This document shows, piece by piece, positions 1-55,036 of a stretch of DNA of 64,000 bases. This stretch comes from Candidatus Daviesbacteria bacterium (lineage in GTDB: Bacteria; Patescibacteriota; Microgenomatia; Daviesbacterales; UBA10151), in the NCBI GenBank assembly GCA_028715175.1, contig JAQUSJ010000001.1:472368-536367 (forward strand). Direction: 5' to 3'. Under the pieces are notes generated by a model, which was not told where the DNA came from, ran no database searches, and worked only from the letters and a program-made list of their open reading frames with translations. Made by a program: the position numbers and the translations under genes. Position 1 is the stretch's first letter. The number at the start of each line of letters is the position of its first letter.

Positions 1-743
1 ATCCTATAGCTATAGCCTCCAAGGCGTCCCCCTGGAGGCTGCCGGATTACAGGGTAGAGTTAAAGAATATTAACAGCTTTAGATTTATAGTAGCAGCAAT
101 TGAGTATGAAATTAAACGGCAAATTGAAGCTTTGGAAAAGAGAGAGAAACTTACTCAGGAAACCAGAGGTTGGAATGAGGACAAAAAGTGTACGTTTTTG
201 CAAAGAAGCAAAGAAGAAGCTCATGATTACCGCTATTTTCCCGAACCGGACCTGCCGGAACTCCGAATTGAAGAGTCTAGAGTCAAAAGCCTGGAGTCAA
301 GTTTGCCAGAATTGCCTTGGGATAAACTAAAAAGATTTGCGGAGGAATATGGTATTAGTAAAAATGATGCCCAGATTCTTTCTGAGACAAAAGAACTGGC
401 CGAGTTTTTTGAAAGTGCTTTAGAACATGGTAAAAAACATGGTGTTTCTATCAAAGAAGTGGCAAATTATATAGTTAACAGAAAGCCCGACATAAGTTCT
501 GTACTGCCAACACAGATTATAGAGGAATTAAAGGGTAAAAAAGTGGGAATAATAGAGAGCGAGAAAGAACTTGAAAAACTCGCTGAACAAGCTGTCAAAG
601 AAAATGCGAACGCAGTTCTGGATTATAAGAAAGGTAAAGAGGCAGCGCTGCAAGTTTTAATAGGCGGAGTAATGAAATTATCTTTAGGTAAAGCAGACAT
701 TGCTAAATTGAAGCCGATTCTGGAAAAATTACTTAAATCTTAA
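1..743 (+). CDS. gatB: Asp-tRNA(Asn)/Glu-tRNA(Gln) amidotransferase subunit B, C-terminal part (5' end lies upstream of window)
   Basis: Frame 3 is open from nt 3 with no stop; GatB signature YRYFPEPDLP and C-terminal GatB/YqeY helical domain; EYEIKRQIEALEK matches GatB. Confidence 0.85.
   Translation, partial: PIAIASKASPWRLPDYRVELKNINSFRFIVAAIEYEIKRQIEALEKREKLTQETRGWNEDKKCTFLQRSKEEAHDYRYFPEPDLPELRIEESRVKSLESSLPELPWDKLKRFAEEYGISKNDAQILSETKELAEFFESALEHGKKHGVSIKEVANYIVNRKPDISSVLPTQIIEELKGKKVGIIESEKELEKLAEQAVKENANAVLDYKKGKEAALQVLIGGVMKLSLGKADIAKLKPILEKLLKS
14..40. repeat. 27-bp GC-rich hairpin element, family A copy 1 (reverse orientation), in-frame inside gatB (encodes ASKASPWRL)
   Basis: agcctccaaggcgtccccctggaggct; stem AGCCTCCA/TGGAGGCT; reverse complement of the core seen at 4343, 39792 etc. 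Confidence 0.7.
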
Positions 744-3700: not shown

Positions 3701-4344
3701 AGTTGCCTCTTGAACAATTGCTGGTTTTCGAAAAAGATCTTTTGGGTTTTTACCTGCATGAACCCCCTTTTCTTGCAGCACTTCAAAAATTAACCAGGTT
3801 TGTATCTATCAAACTTTCCGATTTGAGCGAGGAAAGTATCGGGAAAACTTTGAAACTGGGAGGAGTTATTGTTGCGGTTAAAAAAGTATTAACCAAAAAA
3901 GCAAGCAAGGAAATGGCATTTGTTAAAATTTCCGATGGGATTTTTAGTTTAGAAGTGGTAGTTTTTCCCAAAATATTTGAAACAAGCAAAGAATTTTTGG
4001 TTTCGGATCAGGTTGTTTTAATCTCCGGACGTGTTGAGAAAAGAGAAGAGGAGCTTTCTTTAATTGTTGAAAAAATTGCCCCGTTTGATCCGGAGAGCGC
4101 GGGTGATCTGCAGCAAAATAGCTTAATGGTTGAGATTTATATTCCGGCAGGGGCAGATATATCGGTATTACAAAATATAAACAGAACTCTGCGGGGATTT
4201 CCGGGAGGCACGCCGGTTGCGTTATTTTTAAATAGCGACAAGGGTGTAAGACGTATGGATTTGCCGTTTTCTGTTGATCCGCAACCTTTACTCGAGGAAA
4301 AAGTTAAAGAGATTCTAGGCAAAGAGGCTTTTAAAATAGTCTAG
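781..4344 (+). CDS. dnaE: DNA polymerase III alpha subunit
   Basis: 1187 aa; N-terminal PHP domain (FVHLHGHTQYSLLDG), polymerase core and C-terminal OB fold; typical DnaE length. Confidence 0.95.
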   Translation: MTITKTIMPKFVHLHGHTQYSLLDGLSKVPKLIKTVKDLGMESIAITDHGVMYGAIEFYKACREAGVKPIVGVEMYVAKRSHKDKEGKLDSEPFHLTVLAKNYQGYLNLMKLTTIAHCDGYYYRPRVDKALLKEFHEGLIALSGCPAGEFVRSLNTRDPKKAEEVIKNYLSIFGEGNFYLELQSHPYQQSLDEAVDDTVKKDLQEILDIQTQTWSTVKQLSKKIGIPIVGTNDYHYVAKEDAQAQDALLCVQTGKLLSDVVRLRMIDTPDYFVKSPVEMAENFKDIPEALENTVKIAKLIDLEIPLGVARFPVFETPNKASSMEYLREITYQKAAEKLELTKEIKERLDFELSVIEKKKYADYFLVVADFMDWAHQRGIITNTRGSAAASMVLYCLGVTNLNPLGYLLPFERFLTVYRPSLPDIDVDIADDRRDEVIDYVMKKYGKDRVAHIVTFGTMMGRAAIRDVGRVMGMSYSDVDRIAKLVPPPHQGFHKPLGLAVKEVPDLQNLYRSDPQIKKLLDLAARIEGTVRHASVHAAGIVIAPDEITNFTPLQKESSGERLVSQYDMFAVEDAGLVKMDLLGIRNLSILGKAVEFVKENRGISIDLDKIPLDYKKAFELLAKGETMGVFQLEGSGMTRYVTELKPTSITDIQAMVALYRPGPLGVIPEYIARKHDPKKVKFFDPRMKDYTEASLGLLVYQDDVLLTAINIAGYSWEEADKFRKAMGKKIPSEMARQKDKFIEGCIKNGMRAEKAEELFAMIAPFAAYGFNKAHAASYAMIAYQTAYMKASFPVEFMAAVMTAESGDSDKIASAIEECKRLQIVVLPPDVNKSGIGFSLEKLKELSQADLERSLSVGESGIKQGIRFGLSAVKNVGISAIESIILAREDGEFVSLADLCSRVDTRLVNRKTLESLIKAGALDHLGSRAGQLLVLDSCLEQSHKQSRARLSGQVLLFDSEEDQGVFAVKLPDVAELPLEQLLVFEKDLLGFYLHEPPFLAALQKLTRFVSIKLSDLSEESIGKTLKLGGVIVAVKKVLTKKASKEMAFVKISDGIFSLEVVVFPKIFETSKEFLVSDQVVLISGRVEKREEELSLIVEKIAPFDPESAGDLQQNSLMVEIYIPAGADISVLQNINRTLRGFPGGTPVALFLNSDKGVRRMDLPFSVDPQPLLEEKVKEILGKEAFKIV

Positions 4345-4370
4345 CCTCCAGGGGGACGCCTTGCAAGGCT
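4343..4370. repeat. family A hairpin element copy 2, overlapping the dnaE stop codon
   Basis: agcctccagggggacgccttgcaaggct; dnaE TAG at 4342-4344. Confidence 0.7.
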
Positions 4371-4418
4371 AAGCGGGTGCAGGTTGCCAGCAGGCTTAGA
4401 TTATGTTAGTATTCCTTA

Positions 4419-5112: not shown

Positions 5113-5117
5113 TATTA

Positions 5118-5145
5118 CGCTCCAGGGAAACGCCTTGCGAAGCTG
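5118..5145. repeat. family A hairpin element copy 3 (degenerate) between convergent genes
   Basis: cgctccagggaaacgccttgcgaagctg, directly after the yraN stop (5110-5112). Confidence 0.6.
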
Positions 5146-6061: not shown

Positions 6062-6466
6062 ATGGGTATTATTAAAAAGGTAGCTTTGGCAGCGTTCAAA
6101 GACAAGAAGCTGCTGCAGGTAAGAACACACAAAGAAAGTCATGTGTTCTTTACGCTTGGCGGTAAACCGGAAAAGGGTGAGTGTGAAATTGAATGTTTAA
6201 AAAGAGAGGTTAAAGAAGAAATCGGGTGTGGGTTGGATGAGTCGTCAATAAAGTTTTTGACAGAATTTGAAGATGTGGCACACGGTAAAGATGGCGTTTT
6301 TGTAAACATCAAAATGTATGAAGGGAATTTAATCGGCAGTCCTAAACCCTCCTCAGAGGTGGTGGAAATTGGCTATTTTGATACCCGCTCGGATAAGAAA
6401 AATCTTTCAACAATTGCCCAACGAACAATTTTCCCCTGGCTCAAGGCTCATGGGTATATAAACTAG
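6062..6466 (+). CDS. NUDIX hydrolase
   Basis: Nudix box GGKPEKGECEIECLKREVKEEIG (GX5EX7REUXEEXGU). Confidence 0.8.
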   Translation: MGIIKKVALAAFKDKKLLQVRTHKESHVFFTLGGKPEKGECEIECLKREVKEEIGCGLDESSIKFLTEFEDVAHGKDGVFVNIKMYEGNLIGSPKPSSEVVEIGYFDTRSDKKNLSTIAQRTIFPWLKAHGYIN

Positions 6467-11274: not shown

Positions 11275-12767
11275 TTGAAGTTCTGCCAATTAGATTACTA
11301 ACAGATGAGGATGCGCCGATTTTCGGCAGCTTAAATTTGAATTTGGCAAAGCTGTTTCGGTCCGGAGTTCCTGTCGGGTCCGGGTTAGTTGTCACGCCGC
11401 CGCAGTTTAAACTCAAAACAGTTTTGGAAAATTATGATTTTGGCACCAAGGAGGTTTTTCAACAGTCTCTGACCCTGGTTAAAAGAGAAATACGTTCAAT
11501 TCCTGTCCCGGATGTTTTAATTAACGGTGTCAACCCAACCCACAGAAATTTTTTGCTTAATGGAGAAAAGATTAGCTCAATTAAAAATCTTTGGTTGAAA
11601 TTATTATCAATTTGGATAGAGCAAATTGAAAACAAGTTATGGAATAACGGATTTTATCCGGGTATTACCAGGGACTTGGATCCGCAGATTGTGATTTTTG
11701 TGAAAAAAATGGAATCCTCAGGAAACGCTTATTATGACCAGTTGCAGGATGATGTAGAAGTTCAAGTAAAAACAGGGAAACTATATCCGAACGATCTCAA
11801 AAAGATTATAGAAATAGTCCAGATAGCCGATAAAAAACTTTTTATCCCTCACGAATATGAATGGGTACTGGATGGAGGGGTAAAATTAGTTGGTCTAAAA
11901 CAATATACTCCTTCTGTTACCATTGAGCCTACCCCTATAGTTGCAGGCTCCAGGGGAACGCCTTGCGAGGCTAGAAACGCCGTTAAAGTATTTCTCGACT
12001 TATCCGCCGGATTGACCTTTGAAAAAGAAGTTGACGGGATATATATCGCATCGGAAAAAATATTTGACCTGGATAACCCTTCGGAATCATTTGAAAATTT
12101 GGTTTCCAGATTAGTAGAAGGAGCTATGACTTTTCCAAACTCCCCTATTTTTTTAAAATTGGCAGATAAGTCAGAAGGTATGGGTAAAGTGCGCGGAACC
12201 TTGCGCTTGCTTCACCAGAAAAGTCTATTTGATCCGTTAGCGAAAGTTTTGGATTTTGCCCGACATAAAAAAGGCTTAACAAATGTTCATATAGTTGTGC
12301 CGTTTGTGAGGGGTGTAACTGAACTGCTGAAAATGAAAAGGGAGCTGGCTGTCCGGAAGCTCTCCAGGAAAAATTCCCTGCAGCTTTGGATGGAAGTGGC
12401 CGTGCCGGAGAATATTGTTAATCTGGAAGATTATCTGGTTGCCGGCATTGATGGGGTGGTTTTAAACCTGGATGAGCTTGTATCTTACTTAAATGGTGTT
12501 GATTGTTCGGAGGAAGATTTAGTATTTTACAAGAGTGAAGTTTCGGGGTTACTTAAGTTTCTGGAAGATGGGATTAAGCTTTTGCATAAGTCAAAAGTCC
12601 CTTTCATGGTCTATGGCAGCTTGGTTCTTACCCCAAAAGTGCTGGAATTTTTGGTGGAAAAAGGGGTTTATGGAGTGGTAGTGGAAAAATATGAAGCTCA
12701 CTCAGCTAAGGATTTACTACATCAAGCAGAAAAAAGGATGATTCTAAAAAGAGTGGATAGAATATGA
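11271..12767 (+). CDS. PEP-utilising enzyme family protein (PPDK_N-like ATP-grasp plus C-terminal TIM-barrel domain, no central phosphohistidine domain)
   Basis: N-terminal FGSLNLNLAKLFRSGVPVGSGLVVT resembles G.K.aNL..l...GvpVP.GF; C-terminal VVLNLDELVSYL resembles fSIGTNDLTQ; no GGxTSHAAI motif. Confidence 0.45.
   Translation: MIEVLPIRLLTDEDAPIFGSLNLNLAKLFRSGVPVGSGLVVTPPQFKLKTVLENYDFGTKEVFQQSLTLVKREIRSIPVPDVLINGVNPTHRNFLLNGEKISSIKNLWLKLLSIWIEQIENKLWNNGFYPGITRDLDPQIVIFVKKMESSGNAYYDQLQDDVEVQVKTGKLYPNDLKKIIEIVQIADKKLFIPHEYEWVLDGGVKLVGLKQYTPSVTIEPTPIVAGSRGTPCEARNAVKVFLDLSAGLTFEKEVDGIYIASEKIFDLDNPSESFENLVSRLVEGAMTFPNSPIFLKLADKSEGMGKVRGTLRLLHQKSLFDPLAKVLDFARHKKGLTNVHIVVPFVRGVTELLKMKRELAVRKLSRKNSLQLWMEVAVPENIVNLEDYLVAGIDGVVLNLDELVSYLNGVDCSEEDLVFYKSEVSGLLKFLEDGIKLLHKSKVPFMVYGSLVLTPKVLEFLVEKGVYGVVVEKYEAHSAKDLLHQAEKRMILKRVDRI
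11946..11972. repeat. family A hairpin element copy 4, in-frame inside the PEP-enzyme-like CDS (encodes GSRGTPCEA)
   Basis: ggctccaggggaacgccttgcgaggct. Confidence 0.65.
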
Positions 12768-20918: not shown

Positions 20919-20976
20919 AGGGATAATCCACAGTTTCTACCATCAGTTTCTGTCACTACGTTCAGGATGACAGTCT

Positions 20977-33636: not shown

Positions 33637-33659
33637 ACAGGTATGTTATAATAATAATT

Positions 33660-33947
33660 ATGGCAGGACCAGGAAAAGAAAGAACAGGGGAAAAACATCC
33701 TTCTAGGACTAGAAGATGTCTGAACTTAATAGAGAGAATAGAAATACTAACAATGGAATTGCCAGGCAGGCCCGCAATTACAGCAAGCCCTTTTGATGGC
33801 TGTGGTATTAAGACTCCTGAACAAGTTGAATCAGAAAGAAGACGGACGAGTGATGTAGAACGAATAAGAGTCCAAAGAAGAGCCCTAACTGAGTCACTAA
33901 AAACTAACGCAATAGATATATTAGGTGTTCCTTTTAGATTACCCTAG
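33660..33947 (+). CDS. hypothetical small ORF (95 aa), possibly non-coding
   Basis: ORF only; R/E-rich, atypical composition; lies in the 700-bp uvrB-uvrA spacer. Confidence 0.2.
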   Translation: MAGPGKERTGEKHPSRTRRCLNLIERIEILTMELPGRPAITASPFDGCGIKTPEQVESERRRTSDVERIRVQRRALTESLKTNAIDILGVPFRLP

Positions 33948-33989
33948 ATAAGCTTCTTTAAAATTTCAATTTATGATATTTATATTAAT

Positions 33990-34193
33990 ATGAATATAGG
34001 AGTAGAATCGAGCATAGAATACAGGAGAAATGGACTTATTGATGCTAGTGTATTTTCTAGTAAACAACCTGGTTTAAATTCAACGGGTTCAACAGTAATA
34101 GATAGAATAGGTGGATTTAGTGGTCCTTCGTGTCGGGATATGATTAAGAGAATTATAAAGGAAGATCCTGAATTTCATAAACGACTCCATTAA
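33990..34193 (+). CDS. hypothetical small ORF (67 aa), possibly non-coding
   Basis: ORF only; no motif. Confidence 0.2.
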   Translation: MNIGVESSIEYRRNGLIDASVFSSKQPGLNSTGSTVIDRIGGFSGPSCRDMIKRIIKEDPEFHKRLH

Positions 34194-34284
34194 AATTTAA
34201 TTTTTTTGGGATAAATACCCCTTTTCAAATCTTGCAAAATGGTGTAAAATAAATCATTCATTTTCGGGAAAAATTCGTCCTTCC

Positions 34285-34347
34285 TGTCATTCTGAGGCGA
34301 AGCCGAAGAATATAATTATATCCTTCACTAATCGCTCAGGATGACAA
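34285..34347. repeat. 63-bp element with terminal inverted repeats, family B copy 1, immediately upstream of the uvrA start
   Basis: tgtcattctgag...ctcaggatgacaa; TIR tgtcattctgag/ctcaggatgaca (1 mismatch). Confidence 0.7.
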
Positions 34348-34351
34348 TAAT

Positions 34352-37300
34352 ATGGCTATAGACAAGATAGTTATCAAAGGAGCTAGAGAACATAACCTTA
34401 AAAACGTTGACCTGGAAATTCCCAAAAACAAGCTGGTAGTTTTAACAGGAATTTCCGGTTCAGGCAAGTCTTCTTTGGCTTTTGATACCCTTTATGCCGA
34501 AGGTCAAAGAAGGTATGTAGAATCACTTTCTTCCTATGCCAGGCAGTTTTTGGGGGTAATGGATAAACCTGATGTGGATTTGATTGAAGGGCTTTCTCCG
34601 GCCATTTCTATTGACCAAAAAGGTGTTTCACATAATCCCCGTTCAACTGTCGGTACGACCACCGAAATCTATGATTATTTGCGGCTGCTTTTTGCCCGGG
34701 TTGGCCATCCACATTGTCCTGTCTGCGGCAGAGAAGTTGCCAAGATGAGCGTGGAACAGATAGTGGAGAAAGTAATAAGTGACAAGAAACAAGTAACAAG
34801 TAAGGGGAAAAGAATTATGATTTTGGCGCCGGTGGTTAAAGATAGGAAAGGGGAATATTCCCAGCTTTTTGAAGACTTTAGAAAAAAAGGATTTTCTAAA
34901 GTTAGAGTTGATGGACAAGTAAGAGATCTTGATGACTCGCCTCGCTCCGCGGGCGGAGCGGGAGATCTGGTGTTAATTAAAACTAACAAACACACGATTG
35001 ATTTGGTAGTAGACAGATTAGTGTTAGATAAAACTGTCATTCTGAGCGAAGCGAAGAATATAAAGTTATATCCTTCGGCTACGCCTCAGGATGACAAGAG
35101 TAAAAATAGTGTTCATCTTTCGACAAGCTCAGGACAAGAGAACAATATGTACTCAAGATTGTCACAAAGTATTGAGACAGCGCTTAAATTAGGCGAAGGA
35201 TCAGTGATTATCTCGCAAGTTCTGGATGCTTCTTTAGAATTTCCACAGTACCCTAAAAAAATGGATGACCGTCTTTATTCGGAAAGGTTTGCCTGTCCGT
35301 TGGACAGCATTTCTCTTCCGGAAGTTGAGCCAAGACTTTTATCTTTCAATTCGCCTCATGGAGCTTGTTCCGTCTGCGCCGGACTGGGTAGTCTTTTGGA
35401 GATAGATGAGACAGCGGTTTTAAATCCAATTCTTTCTATTGCGGAAGGCGGAATACTTCCCTGGTCAAGACTTGCTTCAAGTGATACCTGGTTTAGCAGG
35501 TTGATTGAAGCTGTTGGGAAAAAATACGGTTTTGATTTAAATACCAGACTGGGAAATTTAACAACTGAGGCTAAAAAGATTTTGCTTTTCGGCAGCGGAC
35601 AAGATCAATTTAAAGTGGAAGGTAGAAACAGACAAGGCAGATGGACCCATTTTTATTCGGAGTTTCAGGGCTTGGTAGCTTATCTTAAGCAAAGATATCA
35701 GGAATCGGAATCAGACTTTGTTAAGGCCGAAATTGAAAAATATATGGTGAAGGAAGTTTGTCCGAAATGTAAGGGTGCAAGATTAAAGGATGAGGCTCTT
35801 TCAATCACCATAGACGGATTAAATATTGCTGAAGTCACCAGCCAATCAATAGTGCAAGTGCTGGAATGGATATCACACCTCGGAGGTGTGATATCGGAAC
35901 GCGAAGCGCAAATTGCCACACCGATCGTAAAGGAAATTATATTACGCTTAAGTTTTTTAATTGATGTTGGTTTGGATTATTTAACGCTTGACCGTCCTGC
36001 TTCGACTTTGGCCGGGGGGGAATCACAACGGATCAGGCTGGCTTCTCAAATTGGTTCAGGGCTCTCCGGGGTACTGTATGTCTTAGATGAACCATCCATT
36101 GGTTTGCACCAGCGGGATAACCGTCGCTTGATTGAGACTTTAAAAAAGCTGAGAGATTTGGGTAATACGGTTATTGTTAATGAACATGATGCTGAAACAA
36201 TGGAGGCTGCGGATTTGCTCATAGAGATTGGTCCGGGAGCTGGTGAACACGGAGGCAACATTATCTTTATAGGAACTCCGGAGCAAATGAAAAAAAATCC
36301 GAATTCTTTGACAGGGCAATATTTATCCGGCAAGAAAAAAGTGACTCCGATATTTCATCGGAGTCATCCTGATCCGGCTTTACCGGAGAAGGATCTCTCG
36401 AATAACAGGGCTTTAACCGTATTTGGAGCCACAGAGCACAATTTAAAAAATATCAACGTTTCCTTCCCTTTGGGGCAATTTATTGCTGTGACAGGTGTTT
36501 CCGGTTCAGGTAAATCAACTTTAATTCATGATATTTTGTACAAAGCTTTAGCGCAAAAAATATACAGGTCAAGAGAAAAATCCGGAGGACACAAAGGGAT
36601 GGAAGGAGTAGAAAATATAGATAAAGTTGTTTTGGTGGATCAGTCGCCGATTGGCCGTACCCCCCGCAGCAATCCAGCCACTTATACCGGCGCATTCACT
36701 TTTATCAGAGATTTATTTGCACAGTCTCCTGAAGCGAAAATAAGGGGATATGGACCGGGCAGGTTTTCATTCAATGTCAAAGGAGGAAGATGTGAGGTTT
36801 GCGAAGGCGAAGGTACTCTTAAAATCGAAATGCAATTTTTGCCGGATGTTTATGTTACTTGTGAGTCGTGTAACGGCGCAAGGTATAACAGGGAGGCTTT
36901 GGAAATTAATTTTAAGGATAAAAACATAGCGGAAGTGTTGGATATGACGGTAGAAGAGGCCTTGAGGTTTTTTGAGAATATTCCTCATATTAAAAACAAG
37001 CTGCAGGTTTTATTTGATGTCGGGCTTGGCTATATTAAACTGGGGCAACCGGCCCCCACACTGTCAGGAGGAGAGGCTCAACGGATTAAACTGTCTTCGG
37101 AGCTCTCCAAACGGCCCACAGGGCACACCATGTATATTTTAGATGAACCAACCACCGGACTCCATTTTGCAGACATTGAAAGACTCTTGACGATTTTGCG
37201 AAAACTGGTAAATTACGGCAATACTGTGATCATTATTGAGCACAATTTAGATGTCATTAAAAATACGGATTGGATTGTAGACCTTGGGCCGGAGGGCGGA

Positions 37301-37396
37301 GACAAAGGCGGTAAAGTTGTAGCGGAAGGTACCCCCCGGCAGCTTGCCAAAATAAAATCTTCCTACACAGGCCAGTATTTAGCTAGGATAATTTAA
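34352..37396 (+). CDS. uvrA: excinuclease ABC subunit A
   Basis: 1014 aa; two ABC ATPase modules ([20 protein letters not shown]), LSGGE signatures, zinc-finger cysteines; carries in-frame repeat insertions. Confidence 0.95.
34937..34963. repeat. 27-bp GC-rich palindromic in-frame insertion in uvrA (encodes SPRSAGGAG)
   Basis: tcgcctcgctccgcgggcggagcggga; stem CGCTCCGC/GCGGAGCG; flanked by AGATCT on both sides; 9 aa extra relative to my recollection of E. coli UvrA. Confidence 0.5.
35035..35097. repeat. family B 63-bp TIR element copy 2, inserted in-frame inside uvrA (encodes [21 protein letters not shown])
   Basis: tgtcattctgagcgaagcgaagaatataaagttatatccttcggctacgcctcaggatgacaa; about 85 percent identical to copy 1; 63 bp = 21 codons. 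Confidence 0.7.
35107..35134. repeat. partial TIR-like repeat adjacent to B2 (ctttcgacaagctcaggacaagag)
   Basis: Repeats ctcagga(tga)caagag of the B2 right end; shares an 18-mer with 7850-7868. Confidence 0.45.
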
Positions 37397-37419: not shown

Positions 37420-39312
37420 ATGATTAAAAAGATTTCTGTTTTAATTATTTTCTTAATTCTTTTGGTTTTGCCACAGACTGTTTTTGCAGAAGGGGAATTT
37501 GCCACATCTTATGATGTTTTGTATGACGTTTCGGAGGCTGGAGTGACTACAGTCACAGAAAAAATTACCCTCAAAAATCTGACCTCACAATACTATGCCA
37601 ACCAGTTCAAATTAACTATTGGGGCAACCCAAATTTCCGATATTAAGGCTGCAGACCCCGGAGGAGCATTGGATGTAACCTCAGAGCAAAAAGATACAAC
37701 CACCACGATTAGTGTTAAATTTAACCAGCAGGTGGCGGGTTTGGGTAAGAGCTTGCCGTGGACTCTTTCTTTTAAGTCAAAAGATTTTGCTGAAAAAGTC
37801 GGTAAGGTTTGGGAGGTTAGGGTTCCAAGAATTTCTTCAACCACGAATTTGGAAGCCTATAACCTGACTCTTTCGGTACCGCAGAGTTTCGGCCAACCTT
37901 CTTTGATTAGTCCGAACCCCAAAAACCAGACTGTTTCCTCCGGAAGAATATTTTTGACTTTTGATAAAAGCCAGCTTACATCATCCGGTATTTCTGCAAA
38001 TTTCGGCAGCATGCAGATTTTTGATTTTGATTTGAGTTACCATCTGGAAAATAAAAACCTGGTGCCGATATTAACAAACATCGCGCTTCCTCCGGACACA
38101 TCTTTCCAGGATGTCATTTTTCAGCGCATAGACCCAAAGCCGCTTAACGTGACAGTAGACAGCGATGGTAACTACCTGGCCTGGTATAGATTAAACCGCG
38201 GACAAAAAATCGATGTTAAAGTTTTTGGCTCGGCAAAACTTTATACAAACTCTAAGGTAAAGCTCCCTGTGCTGGATGAGGCCTTAAGAAAAAAATATAC
38301 CGAATCTCAAAAATACTGGGAAAAAGATAACCCCCAAATTATGAGTAAGCTGGATGAAATTTTGGGTGACAGTCCCCCGGGCGATTTTGAAGGTAAAGCT
38401 AAGCTCATTTTTCAATACGTAGTGAATTCCCTGAAATATGATTCCGGCCGGTTAAAAAATAGTGATATTGAACGGCTTGGAGCTGTTACGGTTTTAGATA
38501 ACTCCAATTCTGCTGTTTGCATGGAATTTACCGATTTATTTCTGGCTTTATCCAGAGCGGCCGGCATTCCGGCCAGGGAATTAAACGGGTATGCGTACAC
38601 CGAGAATACAACGCTGCGGCCGCTATCTTTAACAAAAGATGTTTTACATGCATGGCCGGAGTATTGGAACGAACGGCGCGGATGGGTTATGGTTGATCCT
38701 ACCTGGGAAAATACCACCGGCGGCGTGGATTATTTTAATAAGCTGGATCTTAATCATTTTGTTTTTGCGGTTAAGGGTTCATCTTCACAGGAGCCAATTC
38801 CTGCCGGTTCGTATAAATATGCGGGTCAGGACAGTCATGATGTAAAAGTAACCTTATCGGAAAATGATTTTCTTGGTAAACCGCAGATTGATGTTGTGAT
38901 TGATGCTTTAAGCCCGATCTTGTCCGGTTTCCCCGGGGTTATCAAGGTGAAAGTTACAAATACAGGCAATGCTGTTTATCCCTCTGCGCCTCTTCAGATT
39001 TCCGCTGATAAACTCACAGCGCTTAACGGAGAGAATCAAAAAACAGGCCCTATACCCCCCTTTGGAAACGGCGAATTCAATTTTAATATCCGGACCAAAT
39101 CGCTTTTTGATTCTTATAAGGATCAAATTGTGATTAATATAGGCAGCCAGAAGTTTACTAAGGATGTGGTAGTAAAACCCTTTATCGTATTCCAACCTGT
39201 TTCTCTTTTGATAGCCGGAATATCTGTTGCTATGGTACTAATCTATTTTGTAGTGCTGGGCGGCCATATTTACCGTAAAAGAATTAAGAATGAACCTGTC
39301 AAAAAATCATGA
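37420..39312 (+). CDS. secreted transglutaminase-like domain protein with a C-terminal TM anchor
   Basis: Signal peptide; transglutaminase core Cys in AVCMEFTDLFLALSRAAGIPARELNGY, His in DVLHAWPEYW, Asp in VDPTW. Confidence 0.7.
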   Translation: MIKKISVLIIFLILLVLPQTVFAEGEFATSYDVLYDVSEAGVTTVTEKITLKNLTSQYYANQFKLTIGATQISDIKAADPGGALDVTSEQKDTTTTISVKFNQQVAGLGKSLPWTLSFKSKDFAEKVGKVWEVRVPRISSTTNLEAYNLTLSVPQSFGQPSLISPNPKNQTVSSGRIFLTFDKSQLTSSGISANFGSMQIFDFDLSYHLENKNLVPILTNIALPPDTSFQDVIFQRIDPKPLNVTVDSDGNYLAWYRLNRGQKIDVKVFGSAKLYTNSKVKLPVLDEALRKKYTESQKYWEKDNPQIMSKLDEILGDSPPGDFEGKAKLIFQYVVNSLKYDSGRLKNSDIERLGAVTVLDNSNSAVCMEFTDLFLALSRAAGIPARELNGYAYTENTTLRPLSLTKDVLHAWPEYWNERRGWVMVDPTWENTTGGVDYFNKLDLNHFVFAVKGSSSQEPIPAGSYKYAGQDSHDVKVTLSENDFLGKPQIDVVIDALSPILSGFPGVIKVKVTNTGNAVYPSAPLQISADKLTALNGENQKTGPIPPFGNGEFNFNIRTKSLFDSYKDQIVINIGSQKFTKDVVVKPFIVFQPVSLLIAGISVAMVLIYFVVLGGHIYRKRIKNEPVKKS

Positions 39313-40628
39313 GTTGGCTCCGCTTTAAATCCGAAATTCCGCGAAGACCAGGTGTCTATATATTTAAAGATAAAGACGGGAAGATTTTATATGTCGGAAA
39401 GGCTGTTGATCTTTATCAGCGCGTTACTTCATACGGTGTCAACCTAACCCACACCAGGGGTGGGATACGCATACACCGTGATAATACTAAAGTAGCAACT
39501 CTTGTTGAACATATCGCCAAAGTGGAAACAATTACAGTTGAATCGGAGCTTGAAGCTTTGATCCTGGAAGCCAATCTTATTAAAAAATATTTGCCTCCGT
39601 TTAATGTCAGACTCACAGATGACAAGGATTATTTGTACATTGCAGTCAGTAAAGAAGCTTTCCCAAAAATTGTGACTGCCAGGAAAAAAGATCTCCAGAT
39701 AATGAAAAAACATTGGGGTCCATTCCCTTCAAGCAGAACTGTCAGGGAAACATTAAAATCATTAAGAAAAGTCTTCCCCTGGTGCGCTGCAGCTTCGCAA
39801 GGGGACGCCTTGCGAAGCAAAACACGATTCCGTCCATGTTTTTATTATCACCTGAAACTATGTCCAGGAGCGTGCATTGGCTTAATAAGTAAAGAAGAAT
39901 ACAACAAAATTATTAACAGGTTTTCCAAATTTATGGACGGAAAAAAGGAGCAACTGATTACCGAACTGACTGCCGAAATGAAGCAAGCAGGGCAAAAACA
40001 AAAATTTGAGGAAGCAGCTAAGATCAAAAAAACAATCGAGGGTATTTTCTATTTAACCCAAACCAACAGGACCGGGCTTTATTTAGAAAATCCTAATTTT
40101 TTACAGGATGAAGGAAGCCTTGCCCTTGAGCAATTAAAAAAAGATTTAAACCTGGGGAAACTACCTGAAAGGATAGAAGGGTATGATATTTCAAATATCC
40201 AGGGCTATGAGGCCACCGGTTCAATGGTTGTTTTAACTAAAGGGGAAATTGATAAATCGCAGTACAGGAAATTTAAGATTAGCTCGTCAGCCGGCGGATT
40301 CAGTCGTCCAAACGATGTGGCTATGATACGTGAGGTGCTGCGGCGCAGATTAAAGCATACCGAGTGGCCTTTGCCTGATTTAATATTAGTAGACGGCGGT
40401 AGAGGACAAGCTAGAGCTGTTCAGGTAACAATTCAACAATTTAGCAATGCAGCAATTCCCGTATTTGGTCTGGCAAAACGGATGGAATGGCTTTATCCGC
40501 CTAAAGGTGAAATTCTAAAGCTTCCAAGAAAAAGTCTTTCTTTGAAATTGTTGCAAAAGCTGCGTGATGAGGCTCACAGGTTTGCCATTAGCTATCACAG
40601 GAAACTTCGTGATAGGATTATAGTATAA
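39309..40628 (+). CDS. uvrC: excinuclease ABC subunit C, short form lacking the C-terminal (HhH)2 domain
   Basis: 439 aa; N-terminal GIY-YIG (GVYIFKDKDGKILYVGKA, ELEALILEANLIKKY), UvrBC motif (KFEEAAKIKKTIEGI), RNase H-like endonuclease domain (EGYDISN); no HhH at the C-terminus. Confidence 0.8.
   Translation: MSWLRFKSEIPRRPGVYIFKDKDGKILYVGKAVDLYQRVTSYGVNLTHTRGGIRIHRDNTKVATLVEHIAKVETITVESELEALILEANLIKKYLPPFNVRLTDDKDYLYIAVSKEAFPKIVTARKKDLQIMKKHWGPFPSSRTVRETLKSLRKVFPWCAAASQGDALRSKTRFRPCFYYHLKLCPGACIGLISKEEYNKIINRFSKFMDGKKEQLITELTAEMKQAGQKQKFEEAAKIKKTIEGIFYLTQTNRTGLYLENPNFLQDEGSLALEQLKKDLNLGKLPERIEGYDISNIQGYEATGSMVVLTKGEIDKSQYRKFKISSSAGGFSRPNDVAMIREVLRRRLKHTEWPLPDLILVDGGRGQARAVQVTIQQFSNAAIPVFGLAKRMEWLYPPKGEILKLPRKSLSLKLLQKLRDEAHRFAISYHRKLRDRIIV
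39792..39818. repeat. family A hairpin element copy 5, a perfect 11-bp stem, in-frame inside uvrC (encodes ASQGDALRS)
   Basis: gcttcgcaagg-ggacg-ccttgcgaagc. Confidence 0.75.
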
Positions 40629-46661: not shown

Positions 46662-46728
46662 ATTGTTGTATATTCTAACAAATTGAGAGATCCTTGCGCC
46701 ACCGCTAAAGCTACGGCGGCACGCGGTC

Positions 46729-46747
46729 GCTACGCTTCAGAATGACA
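46729..46747. repeat. partial family B element (right TIR portion gctacgcttcagaatgaca), overlapping the annotated start of the downstream ORF
   Basis: Matches the B2 right end ggctacgcctcaggatgacaa. Confidence 0.45.
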
Positions 46748-47461
46748 GTAGTGAGAAGTGTTGTTATACTAATTCTAATGTTCTATTTTATTACTTTTCT
46801 GTTTGAACTTATTTTACTTTTCTTTTTATCCAGGAAATTAATCAATTCTTTAGTTAAATTAATCTACAAATTAACCAGAAGCCATAGGGTTGTAGTGCAT
46901 ATTTTAGCCCTTATATTCTTACCCGGTACAATAATACACGAACTGGCACATCTTTTATTTGCCGGAGTAGTGCTGGTTCCGGTCGGAGAAATGAATGTAT
47001 TACCGGAGATTGAAGAAAAAGGAGTTAAACTGGGCAGCGTACAGATTGGTTATACAGATCCGTTGCGCAGGATGATCGTAGGGGTGGCTCCGGTCCTTTT
47101 AGGTATGATTTTAATTTTTTCAATTTTTCTTCTGGTCAAAATAGGAACCTCTCCCTGGTGGCAGGTGATTTTAGCCATTTACCTGCTTTTTGAAATCGGC
47201 AACACCATGTTTTCTTCAAGAAAAGATATTGAAGGCAGTATTCTTTTTGTAATTTTAATCCTAGCTGTTGCTGCAGCAATTTTAGTAGTTTTATATTTTC
47301 TAAATCCGGCCCTTATTCAAAAAATTTGGCTTTGGTCGAATGGTTTGAATTTGGAGGGAGCTTCAAATTTTTTTGAAACGGCATCAATCTATCTTATTGT
47401 GCCTGTTGTGTTGGATTTTTCAGCCATATTTTTAACAAAACCTTTTGCAGGTAGAAGCTAG
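46742..47461 (+). CDS. polytopic membrane protein with an HExxH motif (putative intramembrane metalloprotease)
   Basis: HELAHLLFAG within a TM helix; six or more TM segments; true start may be a downstream Met. Confidence 0.45.
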   Translation: MTVVRSVVILILMFYFITFLFELILLFFLSRKLINSLVKLIYKLTRSHRVVVHILALIFLPGTIIHELAHLLFAGVVLVPVGEMNVLPEIEEKGVKLGSVQIGYTDPLRRMIVGVAPVLLGMILIFSIFLLVKIGTSPWWQVILAIYLLFEIGNTMFSSRKDIEGSILFVILILAVAAAILVVLYFLNPALIQKIWLWSNGLNLEGASNFFETASIYLIVPVVLDFSAIFLTKPFAGRS

Positions 47462-51310: not shown

Positions 51311-52273
51311 ATGAAAATTGGGTTTATTGGACTGGGCAGAATGGGCAAAAATATGGTTTTGCATCTTTTGGAAAAAGGGGTCGAGGTAGTAGCTTGGAAC
51401 AGGTCTCCTGAGCCTCGCGAAGAATTAAAAAAGGAAGCTAATACGCTTGCAAGGGGACGCCTTGCGAGGCTAACGGCTGCAGAAGACTTGGATGGGTTGA
51501 TTGGTAAACTTGATGCCCCTAGAATCATATGGTTAATGGTGACTGCTGGACCGGCAGTTGATGAACTTCTAGCCCAACTTGCCAATAAGTTAAATCCAGG
51601 GGATTTGGTAATTGATGGCGGTAATTCTTTCTACAAAGATACGATTAGAAGGGCAAATGAGTTAAAAAGCCATGGTATCCATTTTATGGATGCGGGTACC
51701 TCGGGCGGTATAGAAGGAGCAAGAAACGGTGCATGTATTATGGTGGGGGGTTCACAGGAGGATTTTAAGAGGGTTGAACCTGTTTTAAAGGTGGCTGCCG
51801 TCCCTGAAGGCTATGCTCATCTGGGTCCAGCGGGTAGCGGACACTTTGCCAAAACCGTTCATAATGGTATTGAATATGGCATGATGGAAGCAATTGGAGA
51901 AGGAGCAGCCATCCTGAAATATTCACCGTTTAACTATGACCTGCGGGAAGTATTTAGAATTTATAATAACGGATCAATCATTGAATCACGTCTGGTAGGC
52001 TGGTCTTTGGCAGAATTTAGGAGTGATCCTGATTTATCCAATATATCCTCTGTAATTGGATCAGGTGGAGGTGCTGGAAAAATCAAGGGGGAAGCACACT
52101 GGACACTAAAGTTGGCACAAAAGCTGGGGATAGATACACCGGTAATTGAGGCTTCAGTCAAAGTCAGAGATAACTCAGACAAAGATAAAGAAAATTCTCC
52201 AAACAGTTTCCGTAACAAAGTAGTTGCTGCCATGCGTTGGCAATTCGGCCGCCATCCTGTTAAAAAATCTTAA
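51311..52273 (+). CDS. gnd: 6-phosphogluconate dehydrogenase (decarboxylating), short-form Gnd
   Basis: 320 aa; Rossmann IGFIGLGRMGKNM; 6PGDH catalytic region; contains an in-frame family A element. Confidence 0.8.
   Translation: MKIGFIGLGRMGKNMVLHLLEKGVEVVAWNRSPEPREELKKEANTLARGRLARLTAAEDLDGLIGKLDAPRIIWLMVTAGPAVDELLAQLANKLNPGDLVIDGGNSFYKDTIRRANELKSHGIHFMDAGTSGGIEGARNGACIMVGGSQEDFKRVEPVLKVAAVPEGYAHLGPAGSGHFAKTVHNGIEYGMMEAIGEGAAILKYSPFNYDLREVFRIYNNGSIIESRLVGWSLAEFRSDPDLSNISSVIGSGGGAGKIKGEAHWTLKLAQKLGIDTPVIEASVKVRDNSDKDKENSPNSFRNKVVAAMRWQFGRHPVKKS
51445..51471. repeat. family A hairpin element copy 6, in-frame inside gnd (encodes LARGRLARL)
   Basis: gcttgcaaggggacgccttgcgaggct. Confidence 0.7.
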
Positions 52274-53578: not shown

Positions 53579-53585
53579 ATAGTTA

Positions 53586-53613
53586 CGCACCCAAGGGGAC
53601 GCCTTGCGAGGCT
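53586..53613. repeat. family A hairpin element copy 7, between the zwf stop and the IMPase start
   Basis: cgcacccaaggggacgccttgcgaggct; overlaps the zwf stop codon at 53612-53614. Confidence 0.65.
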
Positions 53614-55036
53614 AAATTCTGCAAAAATCCATTGAAGGTTCAAGCCAAATCCTTCCGTCTTTTTCTATTAACTCATCAGCTTCTTTTGGCCCCCAGGACC
53701 CGGGTTCGTAAATTGCGGGTTTCCCGCGGACTGCAATTAAGGGATCTATAAAGGCCCATTGTGCTTCCACTTCCTCCGCATCATTAAAGAATGTCTGATC
53801 GCCTCTGATTGTATCGATCAGCAAACGTTCATACGGGTCGGGAATCTTGTGCGTATATGGATTGGGTCTGTAGCAATACTGCATATATTCCGGTTGCAAT
53901 TTTGCATCATAGCCCGGTACTTTGGTTAAAATCTTAAGCACAATTCCCTCATTCGGCTGAATACGGTAGATTAAAACATTTGGTTCATCCCCGCTATCTG
54001 CGCTTTTGAATAGTCTGTTAACATGATTTTTAAAGACAATAGAGATTTCCGTCACTGTTTGCTTTAACTTTTTCCCGGCTCTGATATAAATCGGGACATC
54101 CTTAAAACGTTCGTTGTTAATATAAGTTTTTAAGGCATAGAATGTATCTGTATTGGACTGCAGAGAAACATTTTCTTCTTTTCGATAACCCTCATATTGA
54201 CCGTAAACTACCTTGTCAGGCATAGGTATCAGGTTTTTGAGAATCTTGATCCTCTCTTTGGTGACTGCCTCATTAGAGAATTCACTTGGTGCATCCATGG
54301 CGGCAAAAGCCAGCATCTGCAGTTGATGATTTTGACCAACATCTTTTAACGCCCCTACCTGATCATAATACCCGCCCCGTTTGCCAATGCCGAAATCCTC
54401 GGCAGCAGCAATTTGGATGTGGTCAATATAATCTTTATTGATAAGGGGTTCAAAAATATCATTGGCAAATCTAAAGGTAAGAATATTTTGCAGAGTTTCC
54501 TTGCCTAAATAATGATCCAGCCGGAAAATTTGATCCTCTGTAAAATATTTTAAAAGCAGCTTGTTTAGCTTCTTAGCTGAGGGAAGATTACAACCAATAG
54601 GTTTTTCAATCATTAACCTGATCCAACCCTTGTTTTGTTTGTTCAAATTATTTTTTTGTAAATTCTCGAAAATTTGATGATAGAGTTCAGGGTAGGTAGC
54701 CAGATAAAAAATTCTATTGCCATGTTTTAAGATATTACTTAGCTTTTCATATAAATTTTGGTCTTGAATTTGACCGCTTAGATATGTAAATTTCTTACAA
54801 AGTCTTTTAAAAACTTCTTCTTTAATTTCATGTTTATGATGGATATTTTCCAGATGCAAAACGGTGTGAACATAATGCTTTAATTCCTCATCAGACATTT
54901 CTTTTCTGGCAATACCGACAATAGTCATATCAGATGGCAAAAGGTCTTTTTCCTCCATATCATAAAGAGCCGGAATCAATTTGATCTGGGCGAGATTTCC
55001 GGTAATGCCAAAAATAATTAAGGTAAAAGAGTCCAT
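53612..55036 (-). CDS. zwf: glucose-6-phosphate 1-dehydrogenase
   Basis: 474 aa; N-terminal GDLA-type NADP site; RLDHYLGKE signature. Confidence 0.9.
   Translation of the reverse strand: MDSFTLIIFGITGNLAQIKLIPALYDMEEKDLLPSDMTIVGIARKEMSDEELKHYVHTVLHLENIHHKHEIKEEVFKRLCKKFTYLSGQIQDQNLYEKLSNILKHGNRIFYLATYPELYHQIFENLQKNNLNKQNKGWIRLMIEKPIGCNLPSAKKLNKLLLKYFTEDQIFRLDHYLGKETLQNILTFRFANDIFEPLINKDYIDHIQIAAAEDFGIGKRGGYYDQVGALKDVGQNHQLQMLAFAAMDAPSEFSNEAVTKERIKILKNLIPMPDKVVYGQYEGYRKEENVSLQSNTDTFYALKTYINNERFKDVPIYIRAGKKLKQTVTEISIVFKNHVNRLFKSADSGDEPNVLIYRIQPNEGIVLKILTKVPGYDAKLQPEYMQYCYRPNPYTHKIPDPYERLLIDTIRGDQTFFNDAEEVEAQWAFIDPLIAVRGKPAIYEPGSWGPKEADELIEKDGRIWLEPSMDFCRI

What the first reader, a model, noticed from the sequence alone, without database searches (positions are those of the whole stretch)
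39792..39818. A 27-bp GC-rich palindromic element family inserted in-frame into housekeeping genes, RPE-like
**Shown directly in the sequence**
- The core GCTTCGCAAGGGGACGCCTTGCGAAGC forms a perfect 11-bp stem with loop GGACG at 39792-39818. It recurs with point variants at 14-40 (opposite orientation), 4343-4370, 5118-5145, 11946-11972, 51445-51471 and 53586-53613.
- Four copies lie inside conserved genes: gatB, the PEP-enzyme-like gene, uvrC and gnd.
- The in-gene copies are read in different frames and orientations, giving ASQGDALRS, LARGRLARL, GSRGTPCEA and ASKASPWRL. The shared unit is therefore DNA, not a protein motif.
- Each copy is 27 bp, so the host frame is always preserved.
- The element is strongly GC-rich in an AT-rich genome.

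**Established knowledge**
- This mirrors Rickettsia palindromic elements, which insert in-frame into ORFs. That behaviour is rare.

**Inference**
- An active or recently active miniature palindromic element family that is tolerated as surface loops in essential proteins.
Basis: partly seen in the sequence, partly recalled or inferred. Interest (0 to 1): 0.75.

Follow-up and report, generated by a model that had tools for sequence, protein, structure and literature searches.

The report
REP hairpin repeats inside CPR genes
A 31-bp GC-rich hairpin repeat scattered through this tiny Candidatus Daviesbacteria genome, partly in frame inside essential genes, belongs to a REP family that in related genomes flanks its own IS200-like tyrosine transposase; this kind of element is known, but I found no report of it in this bacterial group.

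Summary
Seven copies of a GC-rich hairpin lie in the 64-kb window, against 0.6 expected by chance. Four are in frame inside gatB, a PEP-utilizer-like gene, uvrC and gnd. Two supply the TAG stop codon of dnaE and zwf. One lies between convergent genes.

The window comes from a Candidatus Daviesbacteria (CPR/Patescibacteria) genome. A scan of public genomes found about 60 further copies in Microgenomates-group CPR genomes. The consensus is TAGCTTCGCAAGG-GGACG-CCTTGCGAAGCTA.

In seven of seven complete loci, copies flank a Y1/HUH IS200-like transposase gene on both sides, and a third copy lies in frame inside it. That is the REP/RAYT arrangement. The window itself has no such gene.

Intragenic REPs in repair and replication genes, and REP-donated TAG stops, were already described by Di Nocera et al. 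2013. The RPE analogy therefore describes the behaviour but names the wrong family.

"Recently active" is not supported: three window copies are shared at orthologous sites with relatives at 71-88% protein identity. Synonymous sites inside in-frame copies are nevertheless unusually conserved (about 80% versus 45% elsewhere).

Verdict: new member of a known kind, of moderate interest.

The parts
13..40 (-). Copy 1, reverse orientation, in frame inside gatB (the gene runs off the left end of the window). It encodes (I)ASKASPWRL. 11-bp stem with one G-T pair.
   Evidence: (-21.5 kcal/mol, z = -4.7). Orthologs have a 7-aa variable loop (RPEGxxE) at this place. The net indel cannot be tested because the window truncates the gene.
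4342..4371 (+). Copy 2, directly at the end of dnaE (781-4344). The dnaE TAG stop (4342-4344) is the TAG head of the element.
   Evidence: No terminator-like T-tract.
5117..5145 (+). Copy 3, filling the 37-bp spacer between the convergent genes UPF0102 (4753-5112) and a UDP-glucose dehydrogenase-like gene (5150-6142, minus strand). Degenerate left arm and AAACG loop.
   Evidence: In relative L103 the same two genes overlap, with no spacer and no element.
11945..11973 (+). Copy 4, in frame in the PEP-utilizer-like ORF 11271-12767. It encodes GSRGTPCEA.
   Evidence: The same site is occupied in Daviesbacteria STB_119 (L018, 88% aa identity; VAPRGTPCEA).
39791..39818 (+). Copy 5 (the reported one), a perfect 11-bp stem in frame in uvrC (39309-40628). 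It encodes ASQGDALRS (aa 162-170), between Cys159 and Cys177 of the Cys-rich region.
   Evidence: (pLDDT below 50 for coil 164-172).
51442..51472 (+). Copy 6, in frame in gnd (51311-52273). It encodes (T)LARGRLARL (aa 44-53).
   Evidence: There are 10 extra codons relative to the L102 ortholog and a 9-residue gap against solved 6PGDH 8ihe_A.
53584..53614 (+). Copy 7, between zwf (53612-55036, minus strand) and the inositol-monophosphatase gene (52778-53590, minus strand). The zwf stop TAG (CTA at 53612-53614) is the element's terminal GCTA.
   Evidence: The same '...FCRI-TAG' ending with the element is seen in L005, whose Zwf is 71% identical. No terminator-like site.

Best explanation
The seven sequences are copies of a REP-type (repetitive extragenic palindrome) family of Microgenomates-group CPR bacteria. 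The family is a GC-rich hairpin of about 31 bp, consensus T-AGCTTCGCAAGG-GGACG-CCTTGCGAAGCT-A.

Shown: in related genomes the same hairpin lies 33-67 nt upstream and 5-60 nt downstream of a single Y1/HUH (IS200-like, RAYT-like) transposase gene, occurs once in frame inside that gene, and is dispersed as solo copies on other contigs.

Inferred: the transposase recognises the hairpin as single-stranded DNA and spreads it in trans, as proposed for RAYT/REP systems. Copies that land in coding sequence survive only when three conditions hold: the net change is a multiple of three, the reading frame through the element has no stop (all frames are open except the one that reads the TAG head), and the site is a tolerant loop. 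Copies read in the TAG frame near a gene end become the new stop codon, as in dnaE and zwf.

The window copies are mostly old and vertically inherited, and partly degenerate in the left arm. They are not fresh insertions, and the 64-kb window has no transposase gene.
For: Repeat family well above chance.

The 18-mer scan of 185,579 genomes returned about 60 true hairpins with matching left arms and AT-rich flanks, all in CPR genomes once mislabelled records are corrected.

L068 ORF 3154-3861 matches Pfam Y1_Tnp at E = 8e-12, and its best NCBIfam hit is REP-associated tyrosine transposase. JGI names a homolog 'REP element-mobilizing transposase RayT'. The HxH motif and Tyr are invariant in 28 homologs, and the profile aligns them to ISDra2 TnpA 2xm3.

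Seven of seven complete loci show the upstream / in-frame / downstream hairpin layout, and the three copies share genome-specific variants. The same genomes carry solo copies on other contigs.

Intragenic copies in Nth-like, RluD-like, MurT, VanW, histidine kinase, MiaA, DHFR, CysRS and P-type ATPase genes use all six frames.

Sites are orthologous with relatives. The gnd segment is missing from an ortholog and from a solved homolog. The UvrC peptide lies in a low-pLDDT coil.

The same behaviour, namely intragenic REPs in uvrA, uvrB, dnaE, recB, tRNA synthetase and pseudouridine synthase genes and TAG stops donated by REP termini, is documented in PMC3733652.
Against: No transposase gene or remnant lies in the window, including the uvrB-uvrA gap where relatives have a Y1_Tnp gene. 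Whether the source genome has the cognate gene is unknown.

The NCBIfam RAYT model scores 44.5 bits against a cut-off of 80, and the E. coli RAYT structure is not reached by the profile.

The head is YTAG, not the canonical GTAG.

Flanking copies are not consistently inverted, and no REPIN-like inverted doublets were seen.

At three sites the net length change is far smaller than the element, so simple insertion is not demonstrated there.

Mobility itself is inferred. No presence/absence polymorphism between near-identical genomes was available.
Confidence: 0.8

Rival explanations
1. The in-frame hairpins are functional nucleic-acid elements kept by selection, for example mRNA structures that pause ribosomes or block exonucleases, or binding sites for a domesticated RAYT. 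On this view they are not merely tolerated parasitic DNA. This can coexist with a REP origin.
For: For identical amino acids, codon identity is 82% inside the element against 45% elsewhere in seven transposase genes (132/161 vs 1206/2697). In four uvrC orthologs it is 79% against 44% (22/28 vs 738/1665). Rare codons TCG and CGA recur at the uvrC site. The in-frame copy inside the transposase gene is conserved across a clade with 54-76% identity. Loop plus right arm is conserved in 6 of 7 window copies.
Against: Five of seven window copies no longer fold better than shuffles. Intragenic copies occur in both orientations relative to the host gene, so the mRNA carries different sequences. Hairpin-free orthologs exist (L103, P0069, P0071). 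The same codon pattern would also arise from recent re-insertion or from gene conversion out of the repeat pool. The sequence pairs in the test are not independent.
Confidence: 0.2
2. This is an RPE-like family in the strict sense: a Rickettsia-type palindromic element that spreads into ORFs without a dedicated transposase.
For: In-frame occurrence in essential genes, palindromic structure, and GC-richness in an AT-rich small genome.
Against: The element is about 31 bp and ends in TAGC/GCTA. CGTC occurs only as the reverse complement of the loop, not as a terminal tag. PMC3733652 describes the short RPEs as CGTC-tagged and not associated with transposase genes. This family flanks a Y1 transposase gene in 7 of 7 loci. 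Its distribution is CPR only.
Confidence: 0.04
3. The gene-end copies are intrinsic transcription terminators or 3'-end stabilisers, and the in-gene copies are accidental relatives.
For: Three of seven window copies sit within 0-5 nt of stop codons. In other genomes most copies are in short intergenic spacers. REPs are reported mostly downstream of ORFs.
Against: No T-tract follows any of them, and the terminator scan found 0 sites in both regions. The copy at zwf is antisense to the upstream gene. Four copies are inside ORFs.
Confidence: 0.1
4. It is a conserved protein motif or a chance resemblance, not a DNA element.
For: ASQGxALR recurs in UvrC orthologs and in the transposase family.
Against: The same DNA is read in six frame and orientation combinations, giving unrelated peptides. 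The family also has non-coding copies. Chance expectation is 0.6 against 9 matches observed.
Confidence: 0.01

Closest known systems
REP/RAYT systems (repetitive extragenic palindromes with REP-associated tyrosine transposases; Nunvar et al. 2010, PMC2817692; Bertels & Rainey 2011; Ton-Hoang et al. 2012)
   Same: A GC-rich hairpin in the 20-40 bp range in many dispersed solo copies. The same hairpin lies immediately on both sides of a Y1/HUH IS200-like transposase gene. Genome-specific repeat variants are shared by the copies around the gene. The gene's neighbourhood is conserved between genomes (an adjacent ORF at 82% identity, and a tRNA gene next to the transposase gene in L068 and L022).
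   Different: Host is CPR/Patescibacteria rather than Proteobacteria. The head is YTAG rather than GT(A/G)G. Flanking copies are often in direct rather than inverted loop orientation. No REPIN doublets or BIMEs were seen. The protein scores below the NCBIfam RAYT cut-off, and its 'YIHRNPIxK' lacks the Gly of NP[LV][RK]xG. The transposase gene itself carries a conserved in-frame copy. In Daviesbacteria a large share of copies is intragenic (4 of 7 in the window).
Intragenic GTAG-type REPs (Opitutus terrae, Thioalkalivibrio, Xanthomonas and others; Di Nocera et al. 2013, PMC3733652)
   Same: Single REPs lie in frame inside uvrABC, dnaE, tRNA synthetase and pseudouridine synthase genes. REP termini provide TAG stop codons. 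The inserts are argued to sit in loops or linkers.
   Different: Different sequence family and phylum, and a genome of only about 0.74 Mb. Several copies are orthologous across relatives at 71-88% protein identity. At least two other hairpin families hit the same genes (uvrA, uvrC).
Rickettsia palindromic elements (RPE)
   Same: Palindromic repeats are tolerated in frame in essential proteins of a small genome.
   Different: By PMC3733652, the short RPEs (RPE-4, RPE-6) are CGTC-tagged and the CGTC families have no transposase association. RPE-1 is longer (about 100-150 bp, from my own knowledge). This element is about 31 bp, TAG-headed and transposase-associated.
IS200/IS605 insertion sequences (e.g. 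ISDra2, IS608)
   Same: The transposase fold and catalytic motifs are shared, and the profile aligns the HUH and Tyr to 2xm3. Hairpins act as recognition elements. A single-strand mechanism is implied.
   Different: Here the hairpins are dispersed without the gene. The gene is about 235 aa (against about 140 aa) and sits in a conserved neighbourhood instead of moving as a unit.

Membership tests
REP/RAYT system | Short (20-40 bp) GC-rich imperfect palindrome present in many dispersed copies | tested here: met
   Consensus of about 31 bp with a 13-bp stem. Seven copies in 64 kb against 0.6 expected. 65 aligned copies in the window and CPR loci.
REP/RAYT system | Conserved GT(A/G)G tetranucleotide head at one end | tested here: not met
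   The base before TAG is T or C in most of the 65 copies; G occurs in only a few. Three of the four head positions match.
REP/RAYT system | Repeats flank a Y1 transposase (RAYT) gene on both sides | tested here: met
   Seven of seven complete loci in relatives have a hairpin 33-67 nt upstream and 5-60 nt downstream. This is not met inside the window itself, which has no such gene.
REP/RAYT system | The two flanking REPs are in inverted orientation | tested here: inconclusive
   Loop orientation of the flanking copies relative to each other is direct in L068, L084, L022 and L048, and also in L088 where both are flipped relative to the gene; it is inverted in L025. The stems are perfect palindromes, so only the 5-nt loop defines orientation.
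REP/RAYT system | Transposase with HUH motif and catalytic Tyr | tested here: met
   H95, H97 and Y155 are invariant in 28 sequences. Pfam Y1_Tnp E = 8e-12. Aligned to ISDra2 TnpA.
REP/RAYT system | RAYT-specific sequence signature (NP[LV][RK]xG after the Tyr; curated NCBIfam REP_Tyr_transpos score) | tested here: not met
   The motif reads YIHRNPI(A/S)K without the Gly. NF047646 scores 44.5 bits against a cut-off of 80. The E. coli RAYT structure is not reached at E <= 1.
REP/RAYT system | Predominantly extragenic, close to 3' ends of ORFs | tested here: inconclusive
   Most copies in the Gottesman-, Shapiro- and Levybacteria-type loci lie in short spacers. In the window only 3 of 7 are at or between gene ends, and 4 of 7 are intragenic.
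REP/RAYT system | REPIN or BIME organisation (inverted doublets) | tested here: not met
   Window copies are singletons at least 775 bp apart. The few close pairs elsewhere are direct (L087, L095).
REP/RAYT system | Transposase binds and cleaves the hairpin; copies are mobile | not testable with these tools
   This needs biochemistry or presence/absence polymorphism between near-identical genomes.
Rickettsia palindromic elements (RPE) | CGTC terminal tag (short RPEs) or 100-150 bp length (RPE-1); no dedicated transposase | tested here: not met
   The element is about 31 bp with TAGC/GCTA termini, and GACG occurs only in the loop. It is associated with Y1_Tnp. Features are taken from PMC3733652, plus my own knowledge for the RPE-1 length.
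Rickettsia palindromic elements (RPE) | In-frame insertion into ORFs that still encode functional proteins | tested here: met
   The frames stay open through four window copies in conserved genes. Function of the proteins is inferred, not shown.
IS200/IS605 insertion sequence | Transposase gene plus subterminal hairpins move together as a multi-copy unit | tested here: not met
   Hairpins occur alone at dozens of sites. The gene has a conserved neighbour ORF at 82% identity in three genomes.
Intrinsic terminator | GC-rich stem-loop followed by a T-tract | tested here: not met
   Zero terminator-like sites in 4250-5250 and 53300-53900.

The most novel reading that the evidence does not exclude
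In Microgenomates-group CPR bacteria, REP hairpins may not be just tolerated in coding DNA. They may be actively kept or renewed there. Three observations point this way. The cognate transposase clade carries a conserved in-frame copy of its own target inside its gene, possibly a master copy or an autoregulatory site. In-frame copies show DNA-level conservation beyond what the protein needs. Several unrelated hairpin families repeatedly occupy the same loops of uvrA and uvrC. If so, transposase-linked hairpin insertion or conversion would be a main generator of the short lineage-specific loop inserts in proteins of these minimal genomes.
Probability: 0.25. Interest if true: 0.65.

Novelty: new member of a known kind. 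Interest (0 to 1): 0.45.

Why it matters
REP/RAYT systems have been studied almost only in Proteobacteria, and how RAYTs spread REPs is still unresolved. This work shows a well-defined REP family with its transposase in ultra-small CPR genomes. A large share of its copies is read as protein, and several are old enough to be shared between divergent relatives.

Practical consequences:
- It explains part of the many short lineage-specific inserts seen in CPR housekeeping proteins.
- It warns annotators and alignment builders that peptides such as 'ASQGDALRS', 'LARGRLARL' and 'RGTPCEA' are repeat-derived.
- It offers a compact system (a 235-aa enzyme, a 31-nt hairpin and an in-gene copy) for testing RAYT biochemistry.
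- It exposes a set of public MAGs titled 'Gammaproteobacteria' that are in fact CPR.

Tried and rejected
- The full 27-mer at up to 3 mismatches finds only itself, so I switched to the 15-mer core and an nhmmer profile.
- Exact-protein look-ups of the window UvrC and of P0001 found no record. The rest of the 743,708-bp source contig could therefore not be read, and the genome-wide copy number and the presence of a transposase remain unknown.
- tblastn with three transposase clades found nothing in the window, including the syntenic uvrB-uvrA gap.
- A single-sequence PDB search with the transposase gave only noise. The profile reached ISDra2 TnpA only.
- The metagenome scan with UvrC returned mostly distant UvrCs. 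Only L104 and L105 were useful, so a covariation analysis of the uvrC hairpin across many orthologs was not possible.
- The gatB indel could not be settled because the window cuts the gene 4 residues upstream of the element.
- No solved structure covers the UvrC Cys-rich region.
- Rfam found only tRNAs in the window, and tRNAs plus one tmRNA in the nine loci scanned.
- Viral contigs had no match.
- The terminator scans were negative.
- A first pattern for the second repeat family had the wrong spacing and found nothing; it was corrected.
- About 40 of the 99 genome hits are chance 18-mer matches in GC-rich genomes with no left arm, and were discarded.
Full report
**Observation.** The reported 27-mer is at 39792-39818 and forms a perfect 11-bp stem with a GGACG loop (-21.0 kcal/mol, z = -5.0 against shuffles). 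Read directly, the six other sites all hold related sequences. They are not point variants: the 27-mer at up to 3 mismatches matches only itself. The shared part is the loop plus right arm, GGGGACGCCTTGCGAGGCTA. This core at up to 3 mismatches gives 9 matches against 0.59 expected, and none of 100 shuffles reached 9. An nhmmer profile built from 62 copies finds exactly these seven sites in the window. Six copies share one orientation and the copy at 13-40 is reversed. Only copies 1 and 5 are strong hairpins. The other five have a divergent left arm (often CTCCAGGG) and fold at -9 to -14.5 kcal/mol. The window is about 40% GC and the element 67%.

**Position relative to genes.** Pfam identifies the host ORFs. 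These are gatB (running off the left edge), dnaE (781-4344), UPF0102 (4753-5112) convergent with a UDP-glucose-dehydrogenase-like gene (5150-6142), a PEP-utilizer-like ORF (11271-12767), uvrC (39309-40628), gnd (51311-52273), zwf (53612-55036, minus strand) and an inositol monophosphatase gene (52778-53590, minus strand). The other three are at gene ends. The dnaE stop TAG (4342-4344) is the element's TAG head. The zwf stop (CTA at 53612-53614 on the plus strand) is the element's terminal GCTA. Copy 3 fills the 37-bp spacer between two convergent genes.

**Source and distribution.** The UvrC is 100% identical to an NCBI protein of a Candidatus Daviesbacteria MAG on a 743,708-bp contig, and its next relatives (65-77%) are also Daviesbacteria. 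A scan of one genome per species (185,579 genomes) with GGGGACGCCTTGCGARGC returned 99 loci. About 40 are single hits in GC-rich genomes with no left arm, and are chance matches. About 60 are full hairpins with AT-rich flanks. They come from Daviesbacteria, Levybacteria, Shapirobacteria, Gottesmanbacteria, Blackburnbacteria, 'Microgenomates' and 'Patescibacteria group' MAGs, and from many MAGs titled 'uncultured Gammaproteobacteria'. Those titles are unreliable. L005 shares four ORFs at 60-77% protein identity with the window. L022 and L084 share a neighbouring gene at 82-83% with Gottesmanbacteria L068. L050 and L089 match Blackburnbacteria L034 at 61-68%. The consensus of 65 copies is aAAtt-TAGCTTCGCAAGG-GGACG-CCTTGCGAAGCTA-aaTtt, a 13-bp stem. 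The loop and right arm were fixed by the search pattern, so only the left arm and flanks are independent evidence. No copy was found in viral contigs. Rfam has nothing at these sites.

**The transposase link.** In Gottesmanbacteria locus L068 three copies bracket and interrupt a 235-aa ORF containing 'CLMPNHYHFLI' and 'YIHRNP'. It matches Pfam Y1_Tnp (IS200-like) at E = 8e-12. Its only NCBIfam hit is 'REP-associated tyrosine transposase', at 44.5 bits and below the curated 80. tblastn finds the same gene next to element copies in L022, L025, L084, L088, L048 (two genes), L012 and L086. All seven complete loci have one hairpin 33-67 nt upstream of the start, one in frame at codon 163-171, and one 5-60 nt after the stop. 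The three copies share genome-specific variants, for example CAAAAGG arms in L084 and a CGAGG loop in L086. The family is very large: at least 7,938 homologs at E <= 1e-10. Every source name is CPR, and JGI calls one 'REP element-mobilizing transposase RayT'. In an alignment of 28 members the HxH motif and the Tyr are invariant, and nearly all carry [L/P]ASQGxALRS after the Tyr motif. A profile aligns the catalytic motifs to ISDra2 TnpA (2xm3, E = 0.003) and does not reach the E. coli RAYT structure. The window has no such gene or remnant. This includes the uvrB-uvrA gap, where two Daviesbacteria relatives carry a different Y1_Tnp gene flanked by different hairpins. Daviesbacteria do encode the cognate clade (P0195, P0223). 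Whether the source genome does is unknown, because its contig could not be fetched.

**Are the in-gene copies insertions, and how old are they?**

- gnd: the window has 10 extra codons relative to the 65%-identical L102 ortholog, exactly at the element. It also has a 9-residue gap at TLARGRLAR against solved 6PGDH 8ihe_A.
- PEP-like gene: the 88%-identical ortholog in Daviesbacteria STB_119 (L018) has the element at the same site.
- zwf: the 71%-identical gene in L005 ends with the same '...FCRI' followed by the element's TAG.
- Convergent pair: in L103 the two genes overlap, with no spacer and no element.
- uvrC: the loop between the invariant FPWC and CFYYH motifs is hypervariable. Many Daviesbacteria have ASQGxALR there, some have 6-9 residues with no hairpin, and others have unrelated inserts.
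- uvrC at the DNA level: L102 has a 10-bp stem with a CAG loop, L101 and L100 have variants, L031 has the loop flipped, and L103 has no hairpin. L104 and L105 carry a different 13-bp-stem palindrome at the same place.
- gatB: the element lies where orthologs have a 7-residue variable loop before LPxYRVELKN, but the window cuts the gene, so the net change cannot be measured.

AlphaFold on the UvrC alignment (mean pLDDT 80.6) puts residues 164-172 in a coil with pLDDT below 50, between confident elements.

The window copies are therefore mostly old and shared with relatives, which contradicts 'recently active'. At some sites the net length gain (+1 to +3 codons) is much smaller than the element. 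That remains unexplained.

**DNA-level conservation.** Among aligned residue pairs with the same amino acid, the codon is identical in 132/161 cases (82%) inside the in-frame element and in 1206/2697 (45%) elsewhere, in seven transposase genes. In four uvrC orthologs the figures are 22/28 (79%) and 738/1665 (44%). The pairs are not independent, but the difference is large. It means one of three things: selection on the nucleic-acid hairpin, conversion or re-insertion from the repeat pool, or insertion more recent than gene divergence. I cannot separate these.

**Other genomes.** Copies inside long ORFs occur in Nth-like, RluD-like, MurT, VanW, histidine kinase, MiaA, CysRS and P-type ATPase genes, and in DHFR genes of three genomes (two of them confirmed by Pfam). 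They use all six frame and orientation combinations, giving ASQGDALRS, (S)FARGRLAKL, xRGTPCEA, ASQGVPLEA, SFARRPLAKL and SKASPWRL. This confirms that the unit is DNA. Gene-end copies have no T-tract and are not terminator-like.

**Comparison with what is known.** Nunvar et al. 2010 (PMC2817692) define RAYTs as IS200-like Y1 transposases flanked by two inverted REPs with a GT(A/G)G head. Di Nocera et al. 2013 (PMC3733652) report REPs inside ORFs, notably in uvrA, uvrB, dnaE, recB, tRNA synthetase and pseudouridine synthase genes. They also report TAG stops donated by REP termini, and they class the short Rickettsia RPEs as CGTC-tagged repeats without a transposase. The present family works like a REP/RAYT system and shows the same intragenic behaviour. 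Strict membership is incomplete. The head is YTAG, flanking copies are not consistently inverted, there are no REPIN doublets, and the protein is below the curated RAYT score. No paper in the searchable library links REP, REPIN, RAYT or IS200 with CPR/Patescibacteria. That library is not exhaustive.

**Verdict.** The family assignment (RPE) and the 'recent activity' claim are wrong. This is a new member of a known kind, with some features worth following up: the conserved in-gene copy in the transposase, codon-level conservation, and several hairpin families hitting the same loops.

Noticed in passing
window 34284-34347 and 35034-35097; half-copies at 20961-20985 (-) and 46725-46748 (-); L100 5574-5633: A second hairpin repeat family of about 62 bp (CTGTCATTCTGAG..GAAGAATATAA..TTATATCCTTC..CTCAGGATGACAA). 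One copy is intergenic just upstream of uvrA. One is in frame inside uvrA ([20 protein letters not shown], part of a 31-aa insert shared with L100 and absent from L101-L103).
   Followed up: partly
window 39435-39490 (uvrC aa 43-60): The N-terminal UvrC insert YGVNLTHTRGGIRIHR is encoded by a hairpin of about 50 nt (-22 kcal/mol). It is single-copy in the window, is shared with P0002 and P0003, and lies in a coil with pLDDT below 50 (residues 48-57).
   Followed up: partly
window 34931-34966, 35869-35895, 36341-36366 (all in uvrA 34352-37396): Three more hairpins in uvrA. Two encode short inserts absent from relatives at 81-85% identity: a 72% GC hairpin encoding SPRSAGGAG, and TGACTCCGAT-ATTTC-ATCGGAGTCA encoding IFHRSH. 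The third, a perfect 12-bp-stem palindrome GATATCACACCTCGGAGGTGTGATATC, lies in a variable segment where the window is two residues longer than three of the four relatives.
   Followed up: partly
L104 and L105, uvrC Cys1-Cys2 loop: A third palindromic family (13-bp stem CAATCCCGGTTTG...CAAACCGGGATTG, encoding QSRFVxSISNRDWK) occupies the same UvrC loop as the focal element in other Daviesbacteria. The same peptide type is seen in P0013, P0050, P0056, P0061 and P0098.
   Followed up: no
L101 3838-4515 and 13410-14081; L102 4302-4979: Daviesbacteria relatives carry other Y1_Tnp genes. One sits between uvrB and uvrA and is flanked by AAGGTCGGACCTT-type hairpins. Another is flanked by AACCCCTGGGGTT-type hairpins. 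So there are several REP/RAYT-like pairs per lineage. The syntenic gap in the window (33637-34351) has no remnant.
   Followed up: partly
L005, L022, L025, L050, L084, L088, L089 and other 'binchicken' TPA MAGs: Records titled 'uncultured Gammaproteobacteria bacterium' encode proteins 60-83% identical to Daviesbacteria, Gottesmanbacteria and Blackburnbacteria proteins, in conserved gene order. They are almost certainly mislabelled CPR genomes.
   Followed up: partly
window 39309-40628: UvrC in this lineage is short (439 aa; orthologs 397-456 aa). It has GIY-YIG, UVR and RNase H-like domains, but no C-terminal helix-hairpin-helix domain was detected by Pfam.
   Followed up: no
window, all seven copies: Six of seven copies have the same orientation, on the strand with rising cumulative GC skew. 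This would fit a strand-biased single-strand mechanism, but n is too small (two-sided binomial p = 0.125).
   Followed up: no
uvrC loop in L101/L102 versus L103; gatB at window 13-40; DHFR in L065: The net length gain at element-bearing sites is often only +1 to +3 codons, although the element spans 9-10 codons. Insertion followed by trimming, replacement-type integration and in-situ origin cannot be told apart.
   Followed up: partly
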